DNA of 6,065 nucleotides from Escherichia phage NC28. A program made the translations under genes and the position numbers. This document shows positions 27 through 6,065 of this stretch, in pieces. Position 1 is the first letter of the stretch. The number at the start of each line of letters is the position of its first letter. The notes below the pieces were generated by a model. The model was not told where the DNA came from. It ran no database searches and was given only the letters and a program-made list of their open reading frames with translations. Where the stretch lies: the sequence record NC_007823.1. One strand, written 5' to 3'.

Positions 27-59
27 AGACTCTTACTTCAACGAATGAAGTAGGAGTCT
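27..59 (+). terminator. Hairpin just downstream of gene H (H stop is at the window end, assuming a circular genome): 13-bp stem (27-39 / 47-59, one G-U pair), 7-nt loop, followed by TCTTTAT. Likely the post-H (TH-like) terminator or mRNA-stabilising hairpin.
   Basis: Read directly: 5' arm AGACTCTTACTTC (27-39), loop AACGAAT (40-46), 3' arm GAAGTAGGAGTCT (47-59). The 3' arm contains AGGAG (52-56), the SD of the ORF starting at 65. The U-tract is weak. Confidence 0.5.
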
Positions 60-64
60 TTATC

Positions 65-433
65 ATGAAGCCCGCTCACCGCTTGACTCATCCGATTCTC
101 GGTTCTTGGTTGTTTAAGTGCCCTGTTTATATCAGTTATGAGCACCTTCATCATGGTCGTCTCATTAAGGTTCGCGCTGTTCGTGATTTATCCCCTCGCC
201 AGCAGCTTATCGCTAACCCTAAAAATTGTTTTGACGTTGTTATTGCTGTGATTGACGTTACTTATTGCTCTGTCACTTATTTTGATTATGAGGCTGAGGA
301 ATATGCCGAGTGTGATTCAGAAACTATGGATAATATCCTTGCTTATGTTAACTCTCCTCACTCCCTTCGCTCTGAGGAGGATTCATCCGTTGATGTTGAC
401 GATATGGCGTGGCTTTATGAAATTGCGGAGTAA
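65..433 (+). CDS. Hypothetical acidic protein (122 aa) in the H-A intergenic region; no recognisable family.
   Basis: ATG at 65 with AGGAG (52-56) 8 nt upstream. T-rich third codon positions match the phage's other genes. C-terminal half is strongly acidic (EEDSSVDVDDMAWLYEIAE tail). Stop TAA at 431-433 lies 3 nt before the next ATG. Confidence 0.5.
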   Translation: MKPAHRLTHPILGSWLFKCPVYISYEHLHHGRLIKVRAVRDLSPRQQLIANPKNCFDVVIAVIDVTYCSVTYFDYEAEEYAECDSETMDNILAYVNSPHSLRSEEDSSVDVDDMAWLYEIAE

Positions 434-526: not shown

Positions 527-699
527 AATACTTTAGTCTTGTGGATGAACATTATGCTTATTGCCCTGACACGCGGATTCTGCATATCACTCGCAGTCGT
601 GTTTCTGACCCTCGTTATGAGCGTCGTTTTCTTACTGATGAGGAGCATTTTGAGCTTCTGGATTGGTTGAAAAGCCGTCTGACTTACGTTAATTCTTGA
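523..699 (+). CDS. Hypothetical 58-aa protein with GTG start overlapping the ORF2 stop (GTGA), translation VKYFSLVDEHYAYCPDTRILHITRSRVSDPRYERRFLTDEEHFELLDWLKSRLTYVNS.
   Basis: GGAGG (513-517) lies 5 nt upstream of GTG 523. Open frame to TGA 697-699 verified codon by codon. No in-frame ATG, so the start is uncertain. Confidence 0.33.
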   Translation: MKYFSLVDEHYAYCPDTRILHITRSRVSDPRYERRFLTDEEHFELLDWLKSRLTYVNS

Positions 700-725
700 C
701 AATCTTCTGAAATACCCTCTATATT
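696..725 (+). promoter_or_regulatory. Candidate sigma70 promoter for gene A (PA-like): -35 TTGACA (696-701), -10 TATATT (720-725), 18-nt spacer.
   Basis: Perfect -35 hexamer and a 5/6 -10 read directly, positioned about 35 nt upstream of the A start codon, analogous to phiX174 PA in the H-A intergenic region. The ORF3 stop TGA sits inside the -35 hexamer. Confidence 0.45.
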
Positions 726-755
726 GCCCTCATAGGTTCACTACGAGGGCTTTTT
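726..755 (+). terminator. Terminator-like or leader hairpin: GCCCTC (726-731) / GAGGGC (745-750) stem, 13-nt loop, followed by TTTTT (751-755), immediately before the gene A ATG.
   Basis: Read directly. The 3' arm GAGGG (745-749) is also the likely SD of gene A, 9 nt before ATG 759. Could terminate transcripts coming from the upstream cassette and/or modulate A translation. Confidence 0.4.
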
Positions 756-758
756 CGC

Positions 759-2243
759 ATGGCTACCGAATTGTTTTCTGACGTTGTAAAGGCTACGTGG
801 TCGCATGTCACTGCTAAGCATCCTCATCTTCGTATGGCTGTTCAGGTTGATAACCGTAGCCGTCTTCTTTCTGATTTGGTTTACCAGTTGGAAAAACGCC
901 TTTCCGAAGAGACTCATTTGGATGATGAGACTTATGCCCTTTATGAATCTCAGACTGGCCTTTTGGAAGACCATATGGCACTGGTTCGAAAGTGTGCAGC
1001 CCAACTTGATAATAGTAACACTATAGACCACCGTACCCCGTTGGACCCTGAATGTGTTTTCCTTTTTGAAATGATTTGTCCAGGTGTTCGCTATGGTAAG
1101 GCGCTTAATTCGCTTTGGAGTAAGTATGTCGCTCAATGGCCTGAGAAGTTAATTCGTCAGGAGCTCGACATGGTTAAGCCTTTATCTTTCAAGGATGAGG
1201 TTGCCAAGTACATGGAGAAAATGCAGGAAAAAACACGTAAAAATCGCATGACTCAGAAAGTGATTAATGAGATGCGTATTGCTCACCAAAAAGGCTGGTT
1301 CTTCGTATTTGATACGTTGACACTTGCTGATGACCGTTTGCAGGCGTTTAATGAAAACCCCAATGCTCTTCGTGATTACTTCAGGACTGTTGGTCGAGCT
1401 GTTTTGCGCGCTGAAGGTCGTTCGGTTAAGGATTCCTACAACGACTGCTATCGCTATCTTTGTGTGCCGGAGTTTGGAGGCCAGCACGGCCGTCTTCATT
1501 GGCATGTCGTGCATATGGTGCGGACTCTTCCTTTGGGAAGTCACGACCCTAATTTCGGTCGCAAGGTACGTAATTATCGCCAAATTAACTCGTTCCGTGG
1601 TATGTGGCCTTATGGCTTCACGCAACCGATAGCTGTACGCTATCAACATGATGCTTATTCTCGTAAAGGTTGGTTGTGGCCTGTTGACAAAACAGGAAAA
1701 GCAATGCAGAGTAAGCCGTATCAGGCGGTCGCATGGTATGTGACCAAGTATGTAGCTAAGCAATCTGATCAGCGTCAGAAAGCTATTACCGAGAGACAAA
1801 AAAAATGCAAAAATCCTTTGATGGCAATTTGCTTGAAGAAAGAATTCAGGGTTCGCAGCAGCCGGAAGCTCGGAATGGAGTTACCTTCAATGGTTCACCT
1901 GAGCAACAAGGTCCTTCTGGAACTGAGCAGAATCAGCTTCGATTCCAGCCCGCTCTATCAGATAGTGAAAGAGAACGCCAAAAAGCAATTGAGCTTGAAC
2001 ATCGGCGTAGTGCCTTTGCACGTCATTATGGATGTGCGCCCGCAAGTGAGAAGTATGTTGAAAAATATCCGTCGTTTGATGAAAAAGACACCAGAATTCA
2101 ATTGGCAGAATTCTATCGCTTCAATGACGGTCACCTTAAAAAATGGGGATATTTCTAATGAAGCACGTCAATACATTGTTGATGCAGGAATTACGCCTTT
2201 TGATTTGCGAGCTAAAGCGACTCAAACTTTCGGCGGTAAGTGA
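759..2243 (+). CDS. A: Replication initiation protein A (rolling-circle HUH endonuclease), 494 aa.
   Basis: Long ORF with HUH motif GRLHWHVVH (His codons near 1497-1514) and double-tyrosine motif AWYVTKYVAKQSD (Tyr codons at 1737 and 1749). Central and C-terminal regions align with recalled phiX174 protein A (e.g. GWFxVFDTLTLADDRL, PNALRDYFR, DPNFGRxVRN, WPYG, GWLWPVD). Confidence 0.94.
   Translation: MATELFSDVVKATWSHVTAKHPHLRMAVQVDNRSRLLSDLVYQLEKRLSEETHLDDETYALYESQTGLLEDHMALVRKCAAQLDNSNTIDHRTPLDPECVFLFEMICPGVRYGKALNSLWSKYVAQWPEKLIRQELDMVKPLSFKDEVAKYMEKMQEKTRKNRMTQKVINEMRIAHQKGWFFVFDTLTLADDRLQAFNENPNALRDYFRTVGRAVLRAEGRSVKDSYNDCYRYLCVPEFGGQHGRLHWHVVHMVRTLPLGSHDPNFGRKVRNYRQINSFRGMWPYGFTQPIAVRYQHDAYSRKGWLWPVDKTGKAMQSKPYQAVAWYVTKYVAKQSDQRQKAITERQKKCKNPLMAICLKKEFRVRSSRKLGMELPSMVHLSNKVLLELSRISFDSSPLYQIVKENAKKQLSLNIGVVPLHVIMDVRPQVRSMLKNIRRLMKKTPEFNWQNSIASMTVTLKNGDISNEARQYIVDAGITPFDLRAKATQTFGGK
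1002..1031 (+). other. Viral (+) strand replication origin 30-mer inside gene A; predicted nick between G1008 and A1009.
   Basis: CAACTTGATAATAGTAACACTATAGACCAC matches the recalled phiX174 origin CAACTTGATATTAATAACACTATAGACCAC at 28 of 30 positions; both differences fall in the AT-rich spacer. In frame within A (translated ...QLDNSNTIDHR...). Confidence 0.8.
1212..2243 (+). CDS. A*: Protein A*: in-frame internal restart within gene A, about 343 aa.
   Basis: In-frame ATG at 1212 (MEKMQEKTRKNRMTQ...) preceded by AAGGA/GAGG (1191-1200). It sits at the position equivalent to the phiX174 A* start, about 25 residues before the conserved GWFxVFDTLTLADD. In-frame ATGs at 1221 and 1248 are alternatives. 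Confidence 0.45.
   Translation: MEKMQEKTRKNRMTQKVINEMRIAHQKGWFFVFDTLTLADDRLQAFNENPNALRDYFRTVGRAVLRAEGRSVKDSYNDCYRYLCVPEFGGQHGRLHWHVVHMVRTLPLGSHDPNFGRKVRNYRQINSFRGMWPYGFTQPIAVRYQHDAYSRKGWLWPVDKTGKAMQSKPYQAVAWYVTKYVAKQSDQRQKAITERQKKCKNPLMAICLKKEFRVRSSRKLGMELPSMVHLSNKVLLELSRISFDSSPLYQIVKENAKKQLSLNIGVVPLHVIMDVRPQVRSMLKNIRRLMKKTPEFNWQNSIASMTVTLKNGDISNEARQYIVDAGITPFDLRAKATQTFGGK
1805..2158 (+). CDS. B: Internal scaffolding protein B (117 aa), encoded in an alternative frame inside gene A.
   Basis: ORF in a different frame from A. C-terminus ...DTRIQLAEFYRFNDGHLKKWGYF matches recalled phiX174 B C-terminus (...WRIQPAEFYRFHDAEVNTFGYF). Acidic, Q-rich N-terminal region typical of B. Confidence 0.9.
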   Translation: MQKSFDGNLLEERIQGSQQPEARNGVTFNGSPEQQGPSGTEQNQLRFQPALSDSERERQKAIELEHRRSAFARHYGCAPASEKYVEKYPSFDEKDTRIQLAEFYRFNDGHLKKWGYF

Positions 2244-3057: not shown

Positions 3058-3071
3058 GGGCCTTCGGGCCC
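3058..3071 (+). terminator. J-F intergenic GC hairpin GGGCC-TTCG-GGCCC followed by TTT; terminator-like (TJ) or mRNA-stabilising stem-loop.
   Basis: Perfect 5-bp GC stem with TTCG tetraloop read directly, followed by TTTAAGGA, whose AAGGA (3075-3079) is the SD for F at 3086. Confidence 0.55.
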
Positions 3072-3085
3072 TTTAAGGAAATCCA

Positions 3086-4369
3086 ATGTCAAACGTGCAA
3101 ACTTCCGCAGAACGTATTCCGCATGACCTTTCCCATCTGGTTTTTGATGCTGGCAAGATTGGTCGTTTAAAGGTTGTTTCTTGGACTCCTGTTGTTGCAG
3201 GTGATTCTTTTGAGCTTGATATGATTGGCGCAATTCGCCTTTCTCCGCTTCGTCGTGGTTTGGCTGTTGATAGCCGCGTTGACTTGTTTACTTTCTATGT
3301 TCCTCATCGTCATGTTTATGGTGAGCAATGGATTGATTTTATGAAAGCAGGTGTTGATGCTGCTCCGCTTGCACCTGTTACTTGTTCGCGTGGTTGGGAT
3401 AGCGCCCAGTATTTGGCTACAATTCCGTCCTCTAACCTGAAGGTTCCTAAGTTCCTTCATCAAGGTTATTTGAATATTTATAATAACTATTTTAAAGCTC
3501 CGTGGATGGATGATTTAACTTATGCCAATCCGTCTAATATGGAAGGTGAAGACGTTCGTTTTGGTGTTCGTGCGTGTAACTTGAAAACTATTTGGACTGC
3601 CCCACTTCCGCCGGACACTGAGACTTCTCATTCTATGGAGACTGAGACTAACTCTATTGATATCATGGGCCTTCAGGCCGCTTATGCTCAGCTTCATACT
3701 GAGCAGGAACGTGATTATTTCATGACGCGTTATCGTGATATTGTTAATGAATTTGGTGGTAGTACTTCTTATGATGCGGATAATCGCCCTCTTCTGGTTA
3801 TGCACTCTGAGTTTTGGGCTTCAGGCTATGACGTCGACGGCACCGACCAAAGTTCTCTCGGTCAGTTCTCTGGACGTGTACAGCAGACCTTTAAGCATTC
3901 AGTACCGCGATTCTTCTGCCCTGAGCATGGCACTATGTTCACACTCGCATTGGTCCGCTTCCCGCCGACCCATGAGATGGAGATGCATTACTTAGTTGGC
4001 AAGGAAGATTTAACCTATACTGATTTGGCTTGTGACCCAGCTCTGATGGCCAACCTCCCTCCTCGTGAGGTTAATATGTCTCAGTTCTTCCATTCTGGAA
4101 GTGCTAGTGCTAAGTTTAAGATTGCTGAAGGTCAATGGTATCGTATGCAGCCTGACCGTGTTGCTTTGCCGTATAACTATCTTGATGGTTTTCCGTTCTA
4201 TAGTGCGATTCCATCTGATGATATTAATCATCGTGTTCTGGTTAATACTGATAACTACGATGAGGTTTTCCAGTCTATGCAGCTTGCGCACTGGAATATG
4301 CAGACCAAGTTTAACTGCACCATTTATCGTAATATGCCGACCACTCGCGACTCTATTATGACCTCTTGA
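3086..4369 (+). CDS. F: Major capsid protein F (427 aa).
   Basis: Same length as phiX174 F and extensive identity to the recalled sequence (MSNxQTxAERxPHDLSHL…, FTFYVPHRHVYGEQWI, GYLNIYNNYFKAPWM, WTAPLPP, SIDIMGLQAAYA, SYDADNRPLLVM, ASGYDVDGTDQxSLGQFSGRVQQT, LPTTRDSIMTS). Confidence 0.97.
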   Translation: MSNVQTSAERIPHDLSHLVFDAGKIGRLKVVSWTPVVAGDSFELDMIGAIRLSPLRRGLAVDSRVDLFTFYVPHRHVYGEQWIDFMKAGVDAAPLAPVTCSRGWDSAQYLATIPSSNLKVPKFLHQGYLNIYNNYFKAPWMDDLTYANPSNMEGEDVRFGVRACNLKTIWTAPLPPDTETSHSMETETNSIDIMGLQAAYAQLHTEQERDYFMTRYRDIVNEFGGSTSYDADNRPLLVMHSEFWASGYDVDGTDQSSLGQFSGRVQQTFKHSVPRFFCPEHGTMFTLALVRFPPTHEMEMHYLVGKEDLTYTDLACDPALMANLPPREVNMSQFFHSGSASAKFKIAEGQWYRMQPDRVALPYNYLDGFPFYSAIPSDDINHRVLVNTDNYDEVFQSMQLAHWNMQTKFNCTIYRNMPTTRDSIMTS

Positions 4370-4375
4370 TTATGT

Positions 4376-4389
4376 GGGCCTTCGGGCCC
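4376..4389 (+). terminator. F-G intergenic GC hairpin GGGCC-TTCG-GGCCC, second copy of the J-F hairpin; terminator-like (TF).
   Basis: Identical stem-loop to 3058-3071, with similar flanks (TTATG upstream, C(C)TTTAAGGA downstream); the downstream AAGGA serves as the SD for G. Confidence 0.55.
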
Positions 4390-4406
4390 CTTTAAGGATG
4401 TTGATT

Positions 4407-4952
4407 ATGTTTCAAGTTTATGTATCTAAGCATGTTGCCCCGTTCACTTCTAAGAACCGTGCTTTTTCTATTGCTCCCGCTGCTAATCCGCAGGTTGTTA
4501 ACTCTGGTGAGATTGTTGCAGGTCGTTCTACGTTTCGTATTGCTTCTTCTATTGCTTCCGCTGTTAATGGTAGTGGTTTCGCTTTTGTTCAGATGATGGA
4601 CCCTAACTCTCCTGATTCTCAGCAGGTTTTCTCTGTTGCTGCTTCTCTGTCCTTTAGTGTTGATTCGAATTACATTCCTTGTGTTGTTCGTTTTGAGGAT
4701 AACGCTGCTCAGCCTACTGATTTTGATATTGCGACCGCTGATTTTATTCCGGTTGAGGTTTCTGCTATTTCTCCTCGTGCGCTTAGTGTTCGCGATTGTG
4801 TTACCGTTGATGTTAAGCCTCGCACTCAAGGCAATAATGTTTTTGTTGGTGTTGTTTTCTTTTCTGCTTCTGCTAATGCCGGTAATGTCACTGGTGTCGT
4901 TTCGATGGCTCAGGTTGACCATGAAGTTACAGCTTTGCAGCCGCTTAAATAA
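4407..4952 (+). CDS. G: Major spike protein G (181 aa).
   Basis: ATG 4407 (MFQVYVSKH...) with AAGGA (4394-4398) 8 nt upstream. Start MFQ and motifs CVVRFE, DCVTVDV-PRT-GNNV-VG and C-terminal LQPLK match recalled phiX174 G. The track's 4374 start is a GTG inside the hairpin; the in-frame ATG at 4398 is too close to the SD. Confidence 0.9.
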   Translation: MFQVYVSKHVAPFTSKNRAFSIAPAANPQVVNSGEIVAGRSTFRIASSIASAVNGSGFAFVQMMDPNSPDSQQVFSVAASLSFSVDSNYIPCVVRFEDNAAQPTDFDIATADFIPVEVSAISPRALSVRDCVTVDVKPRTQGNNVFVGVVFFSASANAGNVTGVVSMAQVDHEVTALQPLK

Positions 4953-5087
4953 AAGGCCACCGCACTCCTGGTTAGATGCCTGCCCAGTGTAGGGTGGACC
5001 GAGCCGTACGGAGATACCCGAGAAACTAGGAACGCGGAAGGCGTTAGCCGCCTTCCCTCCTGCTAAGCCCAAAGGAGACTTTCAGCT
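4953..5087 (+). promoter_or_regulatory. 135-nt structured G-H intergenic region; candidate terminator after G and/or complementary (-) strand origin (primase-dependent ssi). Strong hairpin at 5036-5056 (GGAAGGCG-TTAGC-CGCCTTCC); possible imperfect hairpin 4957-4997; palindrome CCGTACGG at 5004-5011.
   Basis: Hairpins read directly. The spacer is far longer than a terminator plus RBS needs, while the F-G spacer is only 37 nt. My recollection is that in G4 the (-) strand origin is in F-G and in alpha3/St-1/phiK it is in G-H. AAGGAG (5072-5077) is the SD for H. Confidence 0.35.
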
Positions 5088-6065
5088 ATGTTAGGTGCCG
5101 TTGTAGGTGGTATTGTTTCAGCCTTAGCTGGTGGAGCAGCTTCTAAGCTATTTGGTGGCAAGCCTGCCGCTCAAGCCGCCACTGAGTCCTCTGGCCTTTC
5201 TAATGGTCAAGGTGTTATTGGTATGGACCAAGATGCTGGTATTCAGTCAGCTATTCAGGGTTCGAATGTTCCAAATGGTCAGATTCCTGCCCCTACCCAG
5301 ACTGGTGGCGTTATGTCTGACGCTAAAAATATGATTAAGAATGCTGGTAAAGATTTGCTTGATGGTGTTATGACCGCTGGAAGTGACCGCATTAAGCAGG
5401 CATTGGTTGATAAATTGAGTGGTAATAATGCAAAACGACAAGGACAAGCAACCCGTGATTACTTGGCTTCGGCCTTCCCTGAGCTCAACCCGTGGGAACG
5501 TTCTGGAGCTGGTGCTTCCGGTGCCGGATTGGAATCTTCCGGTCAGGACCAACAAAAAGAGTTGATGCGTATGCAGCTGGATAACCAGAAAGATATTGCA
5601 AAGATGCAGATGGATAACAATTTGCAGATTGCTGGTATTCAGTCCGCTACATCTCGTCAGAATACTAAGGACACTGTTTATGCTCAGAATGAAATGCTTC
5701 AGTACAATCAGCGTGAGTCGCAGGCACGCGTTGAATCTATCCTCGCCAACACTAACCTTACGGATAAGCAGGCTACCCATGAAATCATGAGAATGGCTCT
5801 TACCCGTGCTCAGGAAACTGGTCAGCATTTGACTAACTCTCAGATTATGGCATTGGAGAAAAAGGTTTATGCAGAAATCGGAAAAATTAATCAAGATACT
5901 CAAAACGCTCGCTATGGTAGTTCTCAGGTTACTGCTGCGGCGAAAGATGTTACGAATATGATTACTGATGCCACCTCTGGTGCTGCTGATTGGGTTTCCC
6001 AGCAATGGAATTCCCTCTTTAAGGATGGTAAGTCTAATGGTATTCCCCTCAATACCAGAAAATAA
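5088..6065 (+). CDS. H: Minor spike / DNA pilot protein H (325 aa).
   Basis: AAGGAG (5072-5077) 10 nt before ATG 5088. Glycine-rich N-terminus (MLGAVVGGIVSALAGGAASKLFGG), then GIQSAIQGSNVPN, TRDYLAxAFPELNxWER, QKELxxMQLDNQK, IAGIQSATSRQNTKDxVYAQNEML, ENTNL, QNxRYGSS; C-terminal ...FKDGKSNGI...RK. All match recalled phiX174 H. Stop TAA is the last 3 nt of the window. Confidence 0.95.
   Translation: MLGAVVGGIVSALAGGAASKLFGGKPAAQAATESSGLSNGQGVIGMDQDAGIQSAIQGSNVPNGQIPAPTQTGGVMSDAKNMIKNAGKDLLDGVMTAGSDRIKQALVDKLSGNNAKRQGQATRDYLASAFPELNPWERSGAGASGAGLESSGQDQQKELMRMQLDNQKDIAKMQMDNNLQIAGIQSATSRQNTKDTVYAQNEMLQYNQRESQARVESILANTNLTDKQATHEIMRMALTRAQETGQHLTNSQIMALEKKVYAEIGKINQDTQNARYGSSQVTAAAKDVTNMITDATSGAADWVSQQWNSLFKDGKSNGIPLNTRK

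What the first reader, a model, noticed from the sequence alone, without database searches (positions are those of the whole stretch)
4953..5087. Long structured G-H spacer is a candidate complementary-strand origin
A 135-nt non-coding spacer follows G and contains an 8-bp GC-rich hairpin (5036-5056), a possible 41-nt imperfect hairpin (4957-4997) and the palindrome CCGTACGG. Microviruses need a single-strand initiation site on the viral strand, and the F-G spacer here is too short to hold one. As I recall, alpha3/St-1/phiK place their G4-type primase-dependent origin between G and H, but I cannot confirm the sequence match from memory.
Basis: partly seen in the sequence, partly recalled or inferred. 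Interest (0 to 1): 0.55.

Follow-up and report, generated by a model that had tools for sequence, protein, structure and literature searches.

The report
Known primase-dependent complementary-strand origin, alpha3 type

Summary
The feature is already known.

- **Source:** the window is a complete alpha3-like microvirus genome (Alphatrevirus), 91.7% identical to WA13.
- **Spacer:** the G-H spacer (4953-5087, 135 nt) is 91-96% identical to the G-H spacers of alpha3, St-1, phiK and their relatives.
- **Match to G4:** the spacer aligns end to end, at about 78-81%, with the phage G4 F-G spacer. GenBank annotates the 28-nt RNA primer and the 'origin of compl. strand synthesis' there.
- **Hairpin I:** 5036-5056 (GGAAGGCG-TTAGC-CGCCTTCC) is base-for-base identical to the single copy in alpha3, St-1 and phiK. 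It carries the GCGTTAGC motif reported for the St-1/alpha3 origins.
- **Start triplet:** a CTG follows 3 nt downstream (5060-5062), the same geometry as in G4.
- **Stem III:** Two perfectly covarying base pairs support it.
- **Palindrome:** CCGTACGG is incidental.
- **Difference from G4:** G4's 6-bp stem-loop II is absent, as it is in alpha3, St-1 and phiK.
- **Rivals:** the window holds no second copy and no phiX-type site.
- **Aside:** a homologous module sits on small E. coli plasmids.

The parts
4953..5087 (+). G-H intercistronic spacer, the whole element on the viral (+) strand
   Evidence: G stop at 4950-4952 and H ATG at 5088. Stops in all six frames. 91-96% identical to the G-H spacers of alpha3-like phages and 78-81% to the G4 F-G origin spacer.
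4955..5000 (+). Stem-loop III homolog. Outer helix is 4955-4961 (GGCCACC) paired with 4993-5000 (GGTGG-A-CC), with A4998 bulged.
   Evidence: DNA minimum-energy fold. The helix is paired in 99.4% of cells across 24 sequences. Two pairs covary perfectly: C-G 19 / T-A 5, and G-C 22 / A-T 2. A rival local helix, 4980-4985 with 4992-4997, is also 99% compatible but changes on one side only.
5001..5035 (+). Conserved central linker, occupying the position of G4 stem-loop II. Here it forms only a 3-bp CGG/CCG stem (5009-5011 with 5018-5020). It contains the incidental palindrome CCGTACGG (5004-5011) and the block TACGGAGATACCCGA shared with G4.
   Evidence: Alignments. G4 folds CGGAGA...TCTCCG here, but alpha3-like sequences lack the 3' arm. 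The palindrome is broken in G4, ID62, phiK and WA45.
5036..5056 (+). Stem-loop I (hairpin I): GGAAGGCG-TTAGC-CGCCTTCC, containing the GCGTTAGC mini-hairpin motif at 5041-5048
   Evidence: Identical 21-mer, present once each, in alpha3 (5043), St-1 (5042) and phiK (5039). All 8 pairs are kept in 24 of 24 sequences; the fourth pair is A-T in the alpha3 type and C-G in the G4 type, a compensatory change. PMC13037366 reports GCGTTAGC in hairpin I of the St-1 and alpha3 origins.
5060..5062 (+). 5'-CTG-3' predicted primase start triplet. The primer would start opposite T5061.
   Evidence: It aligns column for column with the G4 CTG at 3996-3998. The T of that triplet is the 3' limit of the annotated primer and the G is the annotated origin. 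CTG is invariant in 24 of 24 sequences, always 3 nt after hairpin I. The rule that priming starts at the T of CTG is from PMC6783573.
5034..5061 (-). Predicted 28-nt primer RNA, 5'-AGGAGGGAAGGCGGCUAACGCCUUCCGC-3', complementary to the viral strand. This is an inference by homology.
   Evidence: Reverse complement of 5034-5061. The same operation on the annotated G4 primer region gives AGUAGGGACGGCGGCUUUCGCCGUCCAU.
5063..5070 (+). Conserved 3' tail CTAAGCCC (C[T/A]AAGCC in the family), 3' of the start site
   Evidence: Near-invariant across alpha3-like and G4-like phages and the plasmid homologs.
5071..5077 (+). Ribosome-binding site of gene H (AAAGGAG), 10 nt before the ATG at 5088. It shares the spacer but is not part of the origin core.
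   Evidence: Read directly from the sequence. The alpha3 record M25640 annotates the H RBS at the homologous place. This end of the spacer is the variable part.

Best explanation
The G-H spacer is the phage's complementary (minus) strand origin. It is a G4-type single-strand initiation site read on the infecting viral (+) strand.

**Proposed mechanism, inferred by homology:**
1. After entry, host SSB coats the circular ssDNA.
2. The folded region stays free of SSB and phases it: stem-loop III (4955-5000), a conserved linker, and the very stable hairpin I (5036-5056).
3. E. coli DnaG primase then binds without DnaB, DnaC or PriA.
4. It starts at T5061 of the CTG located 3 nt 3' of hairpin I and copies back through hairpin I. 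The result is a primer of up to about 28 nt, predicted as 5'-AGGAGGGAAGGCGGCUAACGCCUUCCGC.
5. DNA polymerase III extends the primer around the circle to give the replicative form.

**Shown here:** sequence orthology to the mapped origins, conserved geometry, covariation in two helices, strong purifying selection, and uniqueness in the genome.

**Inferred:** the priming itself, the exact start base and the primer length.
For: 1. **Identity of the genome.** The window is a full alpha3-like genome, 91.7% identical to WA13 and 83-85% to alpha3, phiK and St-1. All genes lie on the + strand, which is T-rich at 31.6%. It is therefore the viral strand.
2. **Match within the clade.** The spacer is 95.6% identical to those of ID21 and ID62, 91-92% to alpha3, and 93-94% to St-1 and phiK.
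3. **Match to the mapped G4 origin.** It aligns end to end with the G4 F-G spacer (78.4% by blastn, E 5e-21; 81% to ID52). A global alignment gives 77% against a shuffle mean of 47% and a shuffle maximum of 55%. The G4 record marks the RNA primer at 3970-3997 and the origin of complementary-strand synthesis at 3998 in the aligned columns.
4. **Hairpin I.** The 21-mer is identical and unique in alpha3, St-1 and phiK. The literature gives GCGTTAGC as the hairpin I motif of the St-1 and alpha3 origins (PMC13037366, citing Sims, Capon and Dressler 1979).
5. **Start triplet.** CTG lies 3 nt after hairpin I in 24 of 24 sequences. In G4, priming starts at the T of a CTG 3' of the stem-loops, with SSB and primase only (PMC6783573).
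6. **Covariation.** 99.5% of cells are paired, against 33-58% when partners are slid by 1-3 columns. Three pairs change on both sides, against none in the slid controls.
7. **Selection.** The origin core is 93.5% conserved among 13 alpha3-like genomes. The genome mean is 84.7%, gene G 73%, gene H 85% and the non-coding H-A region 84%. Against G4 the core is 77% identical, while the flanking genes G and H are 54% and 57%.
8. **Uniqueness.** A profile search finds one copy in the window, E 1.8e-43.
Against: - No experiment exists on this phage.
- The spacer's fold energy is not unusual (z -1.24). One 8-bp hairpin per genome is near the chance expectation.
- G4's 6-bp stem-loop II has no counterpart here; only a 3-bp stem forms. 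The three-stem-loop picture drawn for G4 therefore cannot be carried over unchanged.
- The 3' arm of stem III can pair in two ways equally well.
- I could not read the primary 1978-79 mapping papers in the held library. That the St-1, phiK and alpha3 origins lie between G and H rests on my own knowledge, plus the unique position of the published hairpin I motif in those genomes.
Confidence: 0.93

Rival explanations
1. The spacer is mainly an mRNA-level element. The hairpins would act in the G-H transcript as a terminator, attenuator or stabiliser that lowers H expression relative to G, not as a DNA origin.
For: The mRNA has the same sense as the viral strand, so the same hairpins form in RNA. 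The spacer also holds the H ribosome-binding site. From my own knowledge, microviruses place terminators after J, F, G and H. Hairpins of that kind are visible after J, F and H in this window.
Against: Hairpin I is followed by CCTCCTGCTAAG, not a T-run, and the terminator scan finds nothing on the + strand of the spacer. The module is conserved in sequence in unpaired stretches too (TACGGAGATAC, TCCCTNCTGCNAAGCC). It is also conserved after moving between different gene pairs, F-G in G4 and G-H here. In the small E. coli plasmids it lies on the strand opposite the genes, where it cannot be part of their mRNA. A secondary RNA role alongside the origin function is not excluded.
Confidence: 0.04
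2. The complementary-strand origin is a phiX174-type, PriA (n')-dependent primosome assembly site, located either in this spacer or in the long H-A region.
For: phiX174 uses such a site. From my own knowledge it lies in the phiX F-G spacer. Some G4-like phages (ID2, ID18) carry a phiX-like F-G spacer, so origin types do swap within the subfamily. The H-A region is 758 nt long and holds a strong hairpin at 27-58.
Against: The phiX174 F-G spacer has no match in the window better than a 10-nt word, E 0.9 or worse. The 27-58 hairpin sits directly after the H stop and is followed by TTTAT, like a terminator. The H-A region is less conserved (84%) than the G-H core (93.5%). The G-H spacer is homologous to the primase-only G4 origin.
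Confidence: 0.02
3. The hairpins and the palindrome are chance features of a spacer with no function.
For: The fold z-score is -1.24. About 0.65 perfect 8-bp hairpins are expected per shuffled genome. The palindrome is not conserved.
Against: The non-coding stretch is more conserved than either flanking gene. It is homologous across genera and across gene positions. It shows compensatory changes.
Confidence: 0.01

Closest known systems
Negative-strand origins of phages St-1, phiK and alpha3 (Sims, Capon and Dressler 1979, J Biol Chem 254:12615, as cited in PMC13037366)
   Same: Same genus-level clade and the same G-H position. Identity is 91-94% over the spacer. The 21-nt hairpin I with GCGTTAGC is identical. 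CTG, the CTAAGCC tail and stem III are the same.
   Different: A handful of substitutions only. The window has A-T where alpha3 has G-C in one stem III pair, and C-G where alpha3 has T-A in the next; both changes are compensated. It also has T4969, G5022 and C5035, and the ID21-type form of the H ribosome-binding site.
Phage G4 origin of complementary-strand synthesis (G4 oric), F-G spacer, nt 3884-4019
   Same: Collinear homology of about 78% over 125 nt. It shares hairpin I of 8 bp plus a 5-nt loop, CTG 3 nt downstream, the outer helix of stem III, and the blocks CCTGCCCA, TACGGAGATAC and CTGCNAAGCC. The expected mechanism is the same: SSB plus DnaG only, with a start at the T of CTG.
   Different: It lies between F and G, not G and H. 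The G4 loop is GCGAAAGC. The fourth stem I pair is C-G. G4 stem III is 2 bp longer. G4 has a 6-bp stem-loop II (CGGAGA/TCTCCG) that the alpha3 type lacks.
phiX174 complementary-strand initiation site (PriA/n' primosome assembly site), which from my own knowledge lies in the phiX F-G spacer
   Same: Same biological task, starting the complementary strand on SSB-coated viral DNA. It is also an intergenic hairpin region.
   Different: No sequence similarity. From established knowledge, it has a different protein requirement (PriA, PriB, PriC, DnaT, DnaB, DnaC, DnaG). The phiX-like spacer is present instead in the G4-like phages ID2 and ID18.
G4-type single-strand initiation (ssi) signals on plasmids. 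This class is recalled from my own knowledge and was not retrievable in the held library.
   Same: Four small E. coli plasmids of two kinds carry a collinear homolog: CP057337/CP057350 (9.65 kb) and NZ_CP062904/NZ_CP062859 (8.0 kb). Identity to the window is 79% over 117 nt; profile E-values are 2.8e-35 and 4e-32. The stem III arms, the AGAGATACCCG block and TCCCTCCTGCTAAGCC with its CTG are all kept.
   Different: The hairpin I sequence is replaced by one containing GCGAAGC. The module lies in a gene-free stretch of about 1.7 kb on the strand opposite all the genes of a double-stranded plasmid.

Membership tests
alpha3/St-1/phiK-type primase-dependent complementary-strand origin | Non-coding site on the viral (+) strand between genes G and H | tested here: met
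   The spacer is 4953-5087, between the G stop and the H ATG. Stops occur in all six frames. All genes are on the + strand.
alpha3/St-1/phiK-type primase-dependent complementary-strand origin | Sequence orthology to the alpha3, St-1 and phiK G-H spacers | tested here: met
   91.0-91.9% to alpha3 and 93.4-94.0% to St-1 and phiK. nhmmer E 1.8e-43.
alpha3/St-1/phiK-type primase-dependent complementary-strand origin | Hairpin I with an 8-bp stem and the GCGTTAGC motif | tested here: met
   5036-5056 is identical to the unique 21-mer of alpha3, St-1 and phiK. The motif is reported for the St-1 and alpha3 origins in PMC13037366.
alpha3/St-1/phiK-type primase-dependent complementary-strand origin | Priming by DnaG plus SSB alone, resistant to rifampicin and independent of DnaB, DnaC and PriA | not testable with these tools
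   This needs in vitro priming or an M13 origin-deletion rescue assay.
G4 oric in the strict sense (three-stem-loop architecture) | Collinear homology to the mapped G4 origin, including the primer-template region | tested here: met
   78-81% over about 122-125 nt, E 5e-21 to 1e-23. The annotated G4 primer and origin fall in aligned columns.
G4 oric in the strict sense (three-stem-loop architecture) | 5'-CTG-3' start triplet just 3' of stem-loop I | tested here: met
   CTG at 5060-5062 lies 3 nt after the hairpin, as in G4 (hairpin 3972-3992, CTG 3996-3998). It is invariant in 24 of 24 sequences. The rule is from PMC6783573.
G4 oric in the strict sense (three-stem-loop architecture) | Stem-loop III (long-range helix) | tested here: met
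   7 pairs, 99.4% paired, 2 pairs with compensatory changes. An alternative local pairing is not excluded.
G4 oric in the strict sense (three-stem-loop architecture) | Stem-loop II (6-bp CGGAGA/TCTCCG in G4) | tested here: not met
   The 3' arm is absent in the window and in all 17 alpha3-like sequences, and only a 3-bp CGG/CCG stem forms. The stem is also imperfect in the G4-like phages ID52 and NC6. The window is therefore filed under the alpha3 type, not as a strict three-stem-loop G4 oric.
phiX174-type PriA (n') primosome assembly site | Similarity to the phiX174 F-G spacer, which from my own knowledge holds the n' recognition hairpin | tested here: not met
   Best blastn match anywhere in the window is 10 nt, E 0.9.
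Rho-independent transcription terminator | GC-rich hairpin followed directly by a T/U run on the coding strand | tested here: not met
   Hairpin I is followed by CTCCTGCTAAG. There is no + strand terminator-like site in 4953-5087.

The most novel reading that the evidence does not exclude
The alpha3-type origin is not simply 'G4 oric moved one gene along'. It may be a portable priming cassette with a conserved core: the stem III arms, the GAGATACCCG block, and TCCCTNCTGCNAAGCC with the CTG. This core would tolerate loss of stem-loop II and even replacement of hairpin I. It would be exchanged horizontally between microviruses (F-G in G4, G-H in alpha3-like phages, replaced by a phiX-type site in ID2 and ID18) and small E. 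coli plasmid or satellite-like circles. In the plasmids its orientation would let primase alone start the strand that runs co-directionally with the genes.
Probability: 0.2. Interest if true: 0.4.

Novelty: already known. Interest (0 to 1): 0.12.

Why it matters
For this window the result settles the annotation. Positions 4953-5070 should be labelled as the complementary-strand origin, with the primer start at T5061.

Nothing new follows about microvirus biology. The origin type, its G-H location in this clade and its mechanism were established in 1978-79.

The comparative data do give a compact picture of what selection keeps in this origin family:
- **Kept:** hairpin I geometry, CTG, the outer helix of stem III, and two single-stranded blocks.
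- **Not kept:** stem-loop II and the palindrome.

The plasmid homologs found in passing could be a small lead on how primase-only priming sites spread between phages and plasmids.

Tried and rejected
- **Rfam:** a permissive scan of the whole window gave no hit. This is expected for a DNA element.
- **Thermodynamics:** the spacer's fold energy is not significant (z -1.24). The 8-bp hairpin count is not above chance. I dropped both as arguments.
- **Palindrome CCGTACGG:** rejected as a functional unit. It is broken in G4, ID62, phiK and WA45.
- **Short-pattern collection scans:**
  - 16-specified-base pattern: metagenome contigs and genome contigs returned only chance matches. blastn and nhmmer filters kept nothing outside microviruses.
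  - Two more viral contigs patterns behaved the same way.
  - The two single-use scans were therefore spent on a pattern too short for collections of that size.
- **H protein search in IMG/VR:** returned only the 12 alpha3-like contigs already in hand.
- **phiX-type site in the window:** none.
- **Coding potential:** the antisense ORF 4392-5072 and the + strand ORF 4636-4992 overlapping the spacer were rejected as genes. The spacer has stops in every frame, in the window and in nearly all relatives (a few show one open antisense frame). There is no codon periodicity.
- **Terminator reading of hairpin I:** rejected because there is no T-run.
- **Primary papers:** Fiddes 1978 is not held. Searches for Sims 1979, Kodaira 1992 and papers on plasmid G4-type ssi found only secondary citations.
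- **ColE1-type RNAI:** none in the gene-free stretch of the 8-kb plasmid.

Full report
**What the window is.** The 6065 bases are a complete genome of an alpha3-like microvirus (Bullavirinae, Alphatrevirus).
- It matches WA13 and WA45 end to end at 91.6-91.7%, ID62, ID32, ID21, NC35 and NC29 at 89-90%, and alpha3, phiK and St-1 at 83-85%.
- All genes (A, B, K, C, D, E, J, F, G, H) read on the + strand.
- The + strand is T-rich at 31.6%.
- In this family that makes it the packaged viral strand, the only strand that is ever single-stranded on entering the cell.

**Check of the observation.**
- G ends with TAA at 4950-4952 and H starts with ATG at 5088. The spacer is therefore 4953-5087, 135 nt.
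- 5036-5056 is GGAAGGCG-TTAGC-CGCCTTCC, a perfect 8-bp stem with a 5-nt loop.
- 4957-4997 is an imperfect hairpin. The DNA minimum-energy fold extends it to 4955-4961 paired with 4993-5000.
- CCGTACGG occurs once, at 5004-5011.
- The F-G spacer is indeed short, 37 nt.

As bare structure this is not beyond chance.
- The spacer's fold energy has z = -1.24.
- Shuffled genomes carry 0.65 perfect 8-bp hairpins on average, against one observed.
- The hairpin I region is, however, the most stable 50-nt DNA fold on the viral strand.

**What it is.** The homology evidence has three layers.
- **Within the clade.** The spacer is 95.6% identical to the G-H spacers of ID21 and ID62, 91-92% to alpha3, and 93-94% to St-1 and phiK.
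- **Against G4.** It aligns over its whole length with the F-G spacer of phage G4 and G4-like phages: 78.4% to G4 (E 5e-21) and 81% to ID52. In a global alignment the core is 77% identical to G4, against a mean of 47% and a maximum of 55% for shuffles.
- **The mapped origin.** The G4 GenBank record annotates 'RNA primer of replication' at 3970-3997 and 'origin of compl. strand synthesis' at 3998 inside that spacer. The reverse complement of the annotated stretch is AGUAGGGACGGCGGCUUUCGCCGUCCAU. The primer's first base therefore lies opposite the T of a CTG at 3996-3998.

This agrees with the literature. In G4, primase starts at the T of a 5'-CTG-3' located 3' of three stem-loops. It needs only SSB and primase, and it makes a primer of up to 28 nt (PMC6783573).

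In the window the homologous CTG is 5060-5062. It lies 3 nt after hairpin I, exactly as in G4. The predicted primer is 5'-AGGAGGGAAGGCGGCUAACGCCUUCCGC.

The 21-nt hairpin I is identical in the window, alpha3, St-1 and phiK. It occurs once per genome, always in the G-H spacer. A 2026 review states that the St-1 and alpha3 origins carry GCGTTAGC in hairpin I where G4 has GCGAAAGC, citing Sims, Capon and Dressler 1979 (PMC13037366). The window has GCGTTAGC at 5041-5048.

**Structure and covariation.** I aligned 24 distinct spacers, 17 alpha3-like and 7 G4-like.

| Structure tested | Cells paired | Pairs changed on both sides |
|---|---|---|
| Hairpin I + long-range stem III + 3-bp central stem | 99.5% | 3 |
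| Same structure, 3' partners slid 1-3 columns | 33-58% | 0 |
| RNAalifold alternative, local pairing of the stem III 3' arm | about 99% | none in the stem III region |

The three pairs that change on both sides are:
- the fourth pair of hairpin I, A-T in all alpha3-like and C-G in all G4-like sequences;
- two adjacent pairs of stem III, C-G 19 / T-A 5 and G-C 22 / A-T 2.

The window carries the rarer A-T form in stem III, shared only with Lilleven. In the RNAalifold alternative, the stem III 3' arm pairs locally with CTGCCC at 4980-4985. The long-range helix is better supported, but the two may alternate.

G4 folds into the three expected stem-loops. Its stem-loop II (CGGAGA/TCTCCG) has no 3' arm in any alpha3-like sequence. 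Only CGG/CCG (5009-5011 with 5018-5020) can form. The stem is also imperfect in ID52 and NC6. The linker is nevertheless almost invariant among alpha3-like phages, which suggests it is read as sequence or as spacing rather than as a helix.

The palindrome CCGTACGG is broken in G4 (GCC-TACGG), ID62, phiK and WA45, so it is incidental.

**Selection.** Conservation was measured among 13 aligned alpha3-like genomes.

| Region | Conservation |
|---|---|
| Origin core 4953-5070 | 93.5% |
| Genome mean | 84.7% |
| Gene G | 73% |
| Gene H | 85% |
| Non-coding H-A region | 84% |

Only stretches of gene A and its overlapping genes, and part of gene D, score higher. Between the window and G4 the core keeps 77% identity, while G and H have fallen to 54% and 57%. 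The 3' end of the spacer, which holds the H ribosome-binding site, is the variable part.

**Rivals.**
- **Terminator or mRNA element.** There is no T-run after hairpin I and no + strand terminator-like site in the spacer. Conservation covers unpaired blocks, and it survives relocation between different gene pairs. A secondary RNA role cannot be excluded.
- **phiX-type PriA site, or a better candidate in the H-A region.** The phiX F-G spacer finds nothing in the window. An origin profile finds one copy only. The strong 27-58 hairpin sits directly after the H stop and looks like a terminator.
- **Chance.** This is excluded by the conservation and the covariation.

**Comparison with what is known.** By function and by membership this is the alpha3/St-1/phiK-type primase-dependent origin, the sister of G4 oric. 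Every sequence-level defining feature was tested and met. The biochemical one, priming by DnaG plus SSB alone, cannot be tested here.

It fails one feature of the strict three-stem-loop G4 architecture, stem-loop II. The sequenced alpha3, St-1 and phiK genomes fail it in the same way. I therefore file it under the alpha3 type.

That those origins lie between G and H is from my own knowledge of Sims et al. 1979 and Kodaira et al. 1992, which I could not open. It is corroborated by the unique position of the published hairpin I motif.

**Novelty.** Already known. The interest lies only in the tidy comparative picture and in two asides.

**Asides.**
- **Plasmid homologs.** Four small circular E. 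coli plasmids of two kinds (9.65 kb and 8.0 kb) carry a collinear homolog of this origin. It lies in a gene-free stretch of about 1.7 kb, on the strand opposite all their genes. The CTG block and the stem III arms are kept, but hairpin I is different and contains GCGAAGC. The 9.65-kb element encodes an AlpA-like HTH protein, an Sf6 small-terminase-like protein and a resolvase, which gives it a satellite-like flavour.
- **Origin swapping in G4-like phages.** ID2 and ID18 do not have the G4-type module in their F-G spacer. They have a phiX174-like one instead.

Noticed in passing
L303 (CP057337.1) 1063-1208 minus strand; also CP057350.1; L306 (NZ_CP062904.1) 1342-1490 minus strand; also NZ_CP062859.1: Small circular E. 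coli plasmids (9653 bp from sheep faeces in the UK; 8009 bp from pig faeces in Canada) carry a collinear homolog of the alpha3/G4-type origin. Identity to the window is 79% over 117 nt; nhmmer E-values are 2.8e-35 and 4e-32. It lies inside a gene-free stretch of about 1.7 kb, on the strand opposite all annotated genes. The stem III arms, AGAGATACCCG and TCCCTCCTGCTAAGCC (with CTG) are kept. Hairpin I is replaced by a sequence containing GCGAAGC. The 9.65-kb element encodes an AlpA-like HTH protein, an Sf6 small-terminase-like protein and a resolvase. No Rep protein and no ColE1 RNAI were found.
   Followed up: partly
L285 (ID18, NC_007856) 238-329; L286 (ID2, NC_007817) 231-329: These two Gequatrovirus (G4-like) phages have short F-G spacers of 92 and 99 nt. 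The spacers are not G4-type but resemble the phiX174 F-G spacer (AAAAATTTTAATTTTT ... GGTTGAxCAAGCGAAGCGCG). Different origin modules therefore seem to have been swapped at the same intergenic position within one genus.
   Followed up: partly
window 27-58: A 14-bp hairpin (AGACTCTTACTTCA / TGAAGTAGGAGTCT, with one G-T pair) lies just after the H stop, since the genome is circular and H ends at 6065. It is followed by TTTAT and looks like the terminator after H. It is the second most stable local fold of the viral strand.
   Followed up: no
window 696-758: A near-consensus sigma-70 promoter (TTGACA, 18 nt, TATATT; 11 of 12 matches) is followed at 726-750 by the hairpin GCCCTC...GAGGGC and TTTTT, directly before the gene A ATG at 759. 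This terminator-like structure lies between the presumed A promoter and gene A.
   Followed up: no
window 3058-3071 and 4376-4389: Two copies of the same hairpin, GGGCCTTCGGGCCC, each followed by TTTAAGGA (which also serves as a ribosome-binding site). One lies after gene J and one after gene F.
   Followed up: no
window 65-433 and 523-699: The 758-nt H-A region holds open reading frames of 122 and 58 codons on the + strand. The region is 84% conserved among alpha3-like genomes. I did not test whether they are genes.
   Followed up: no
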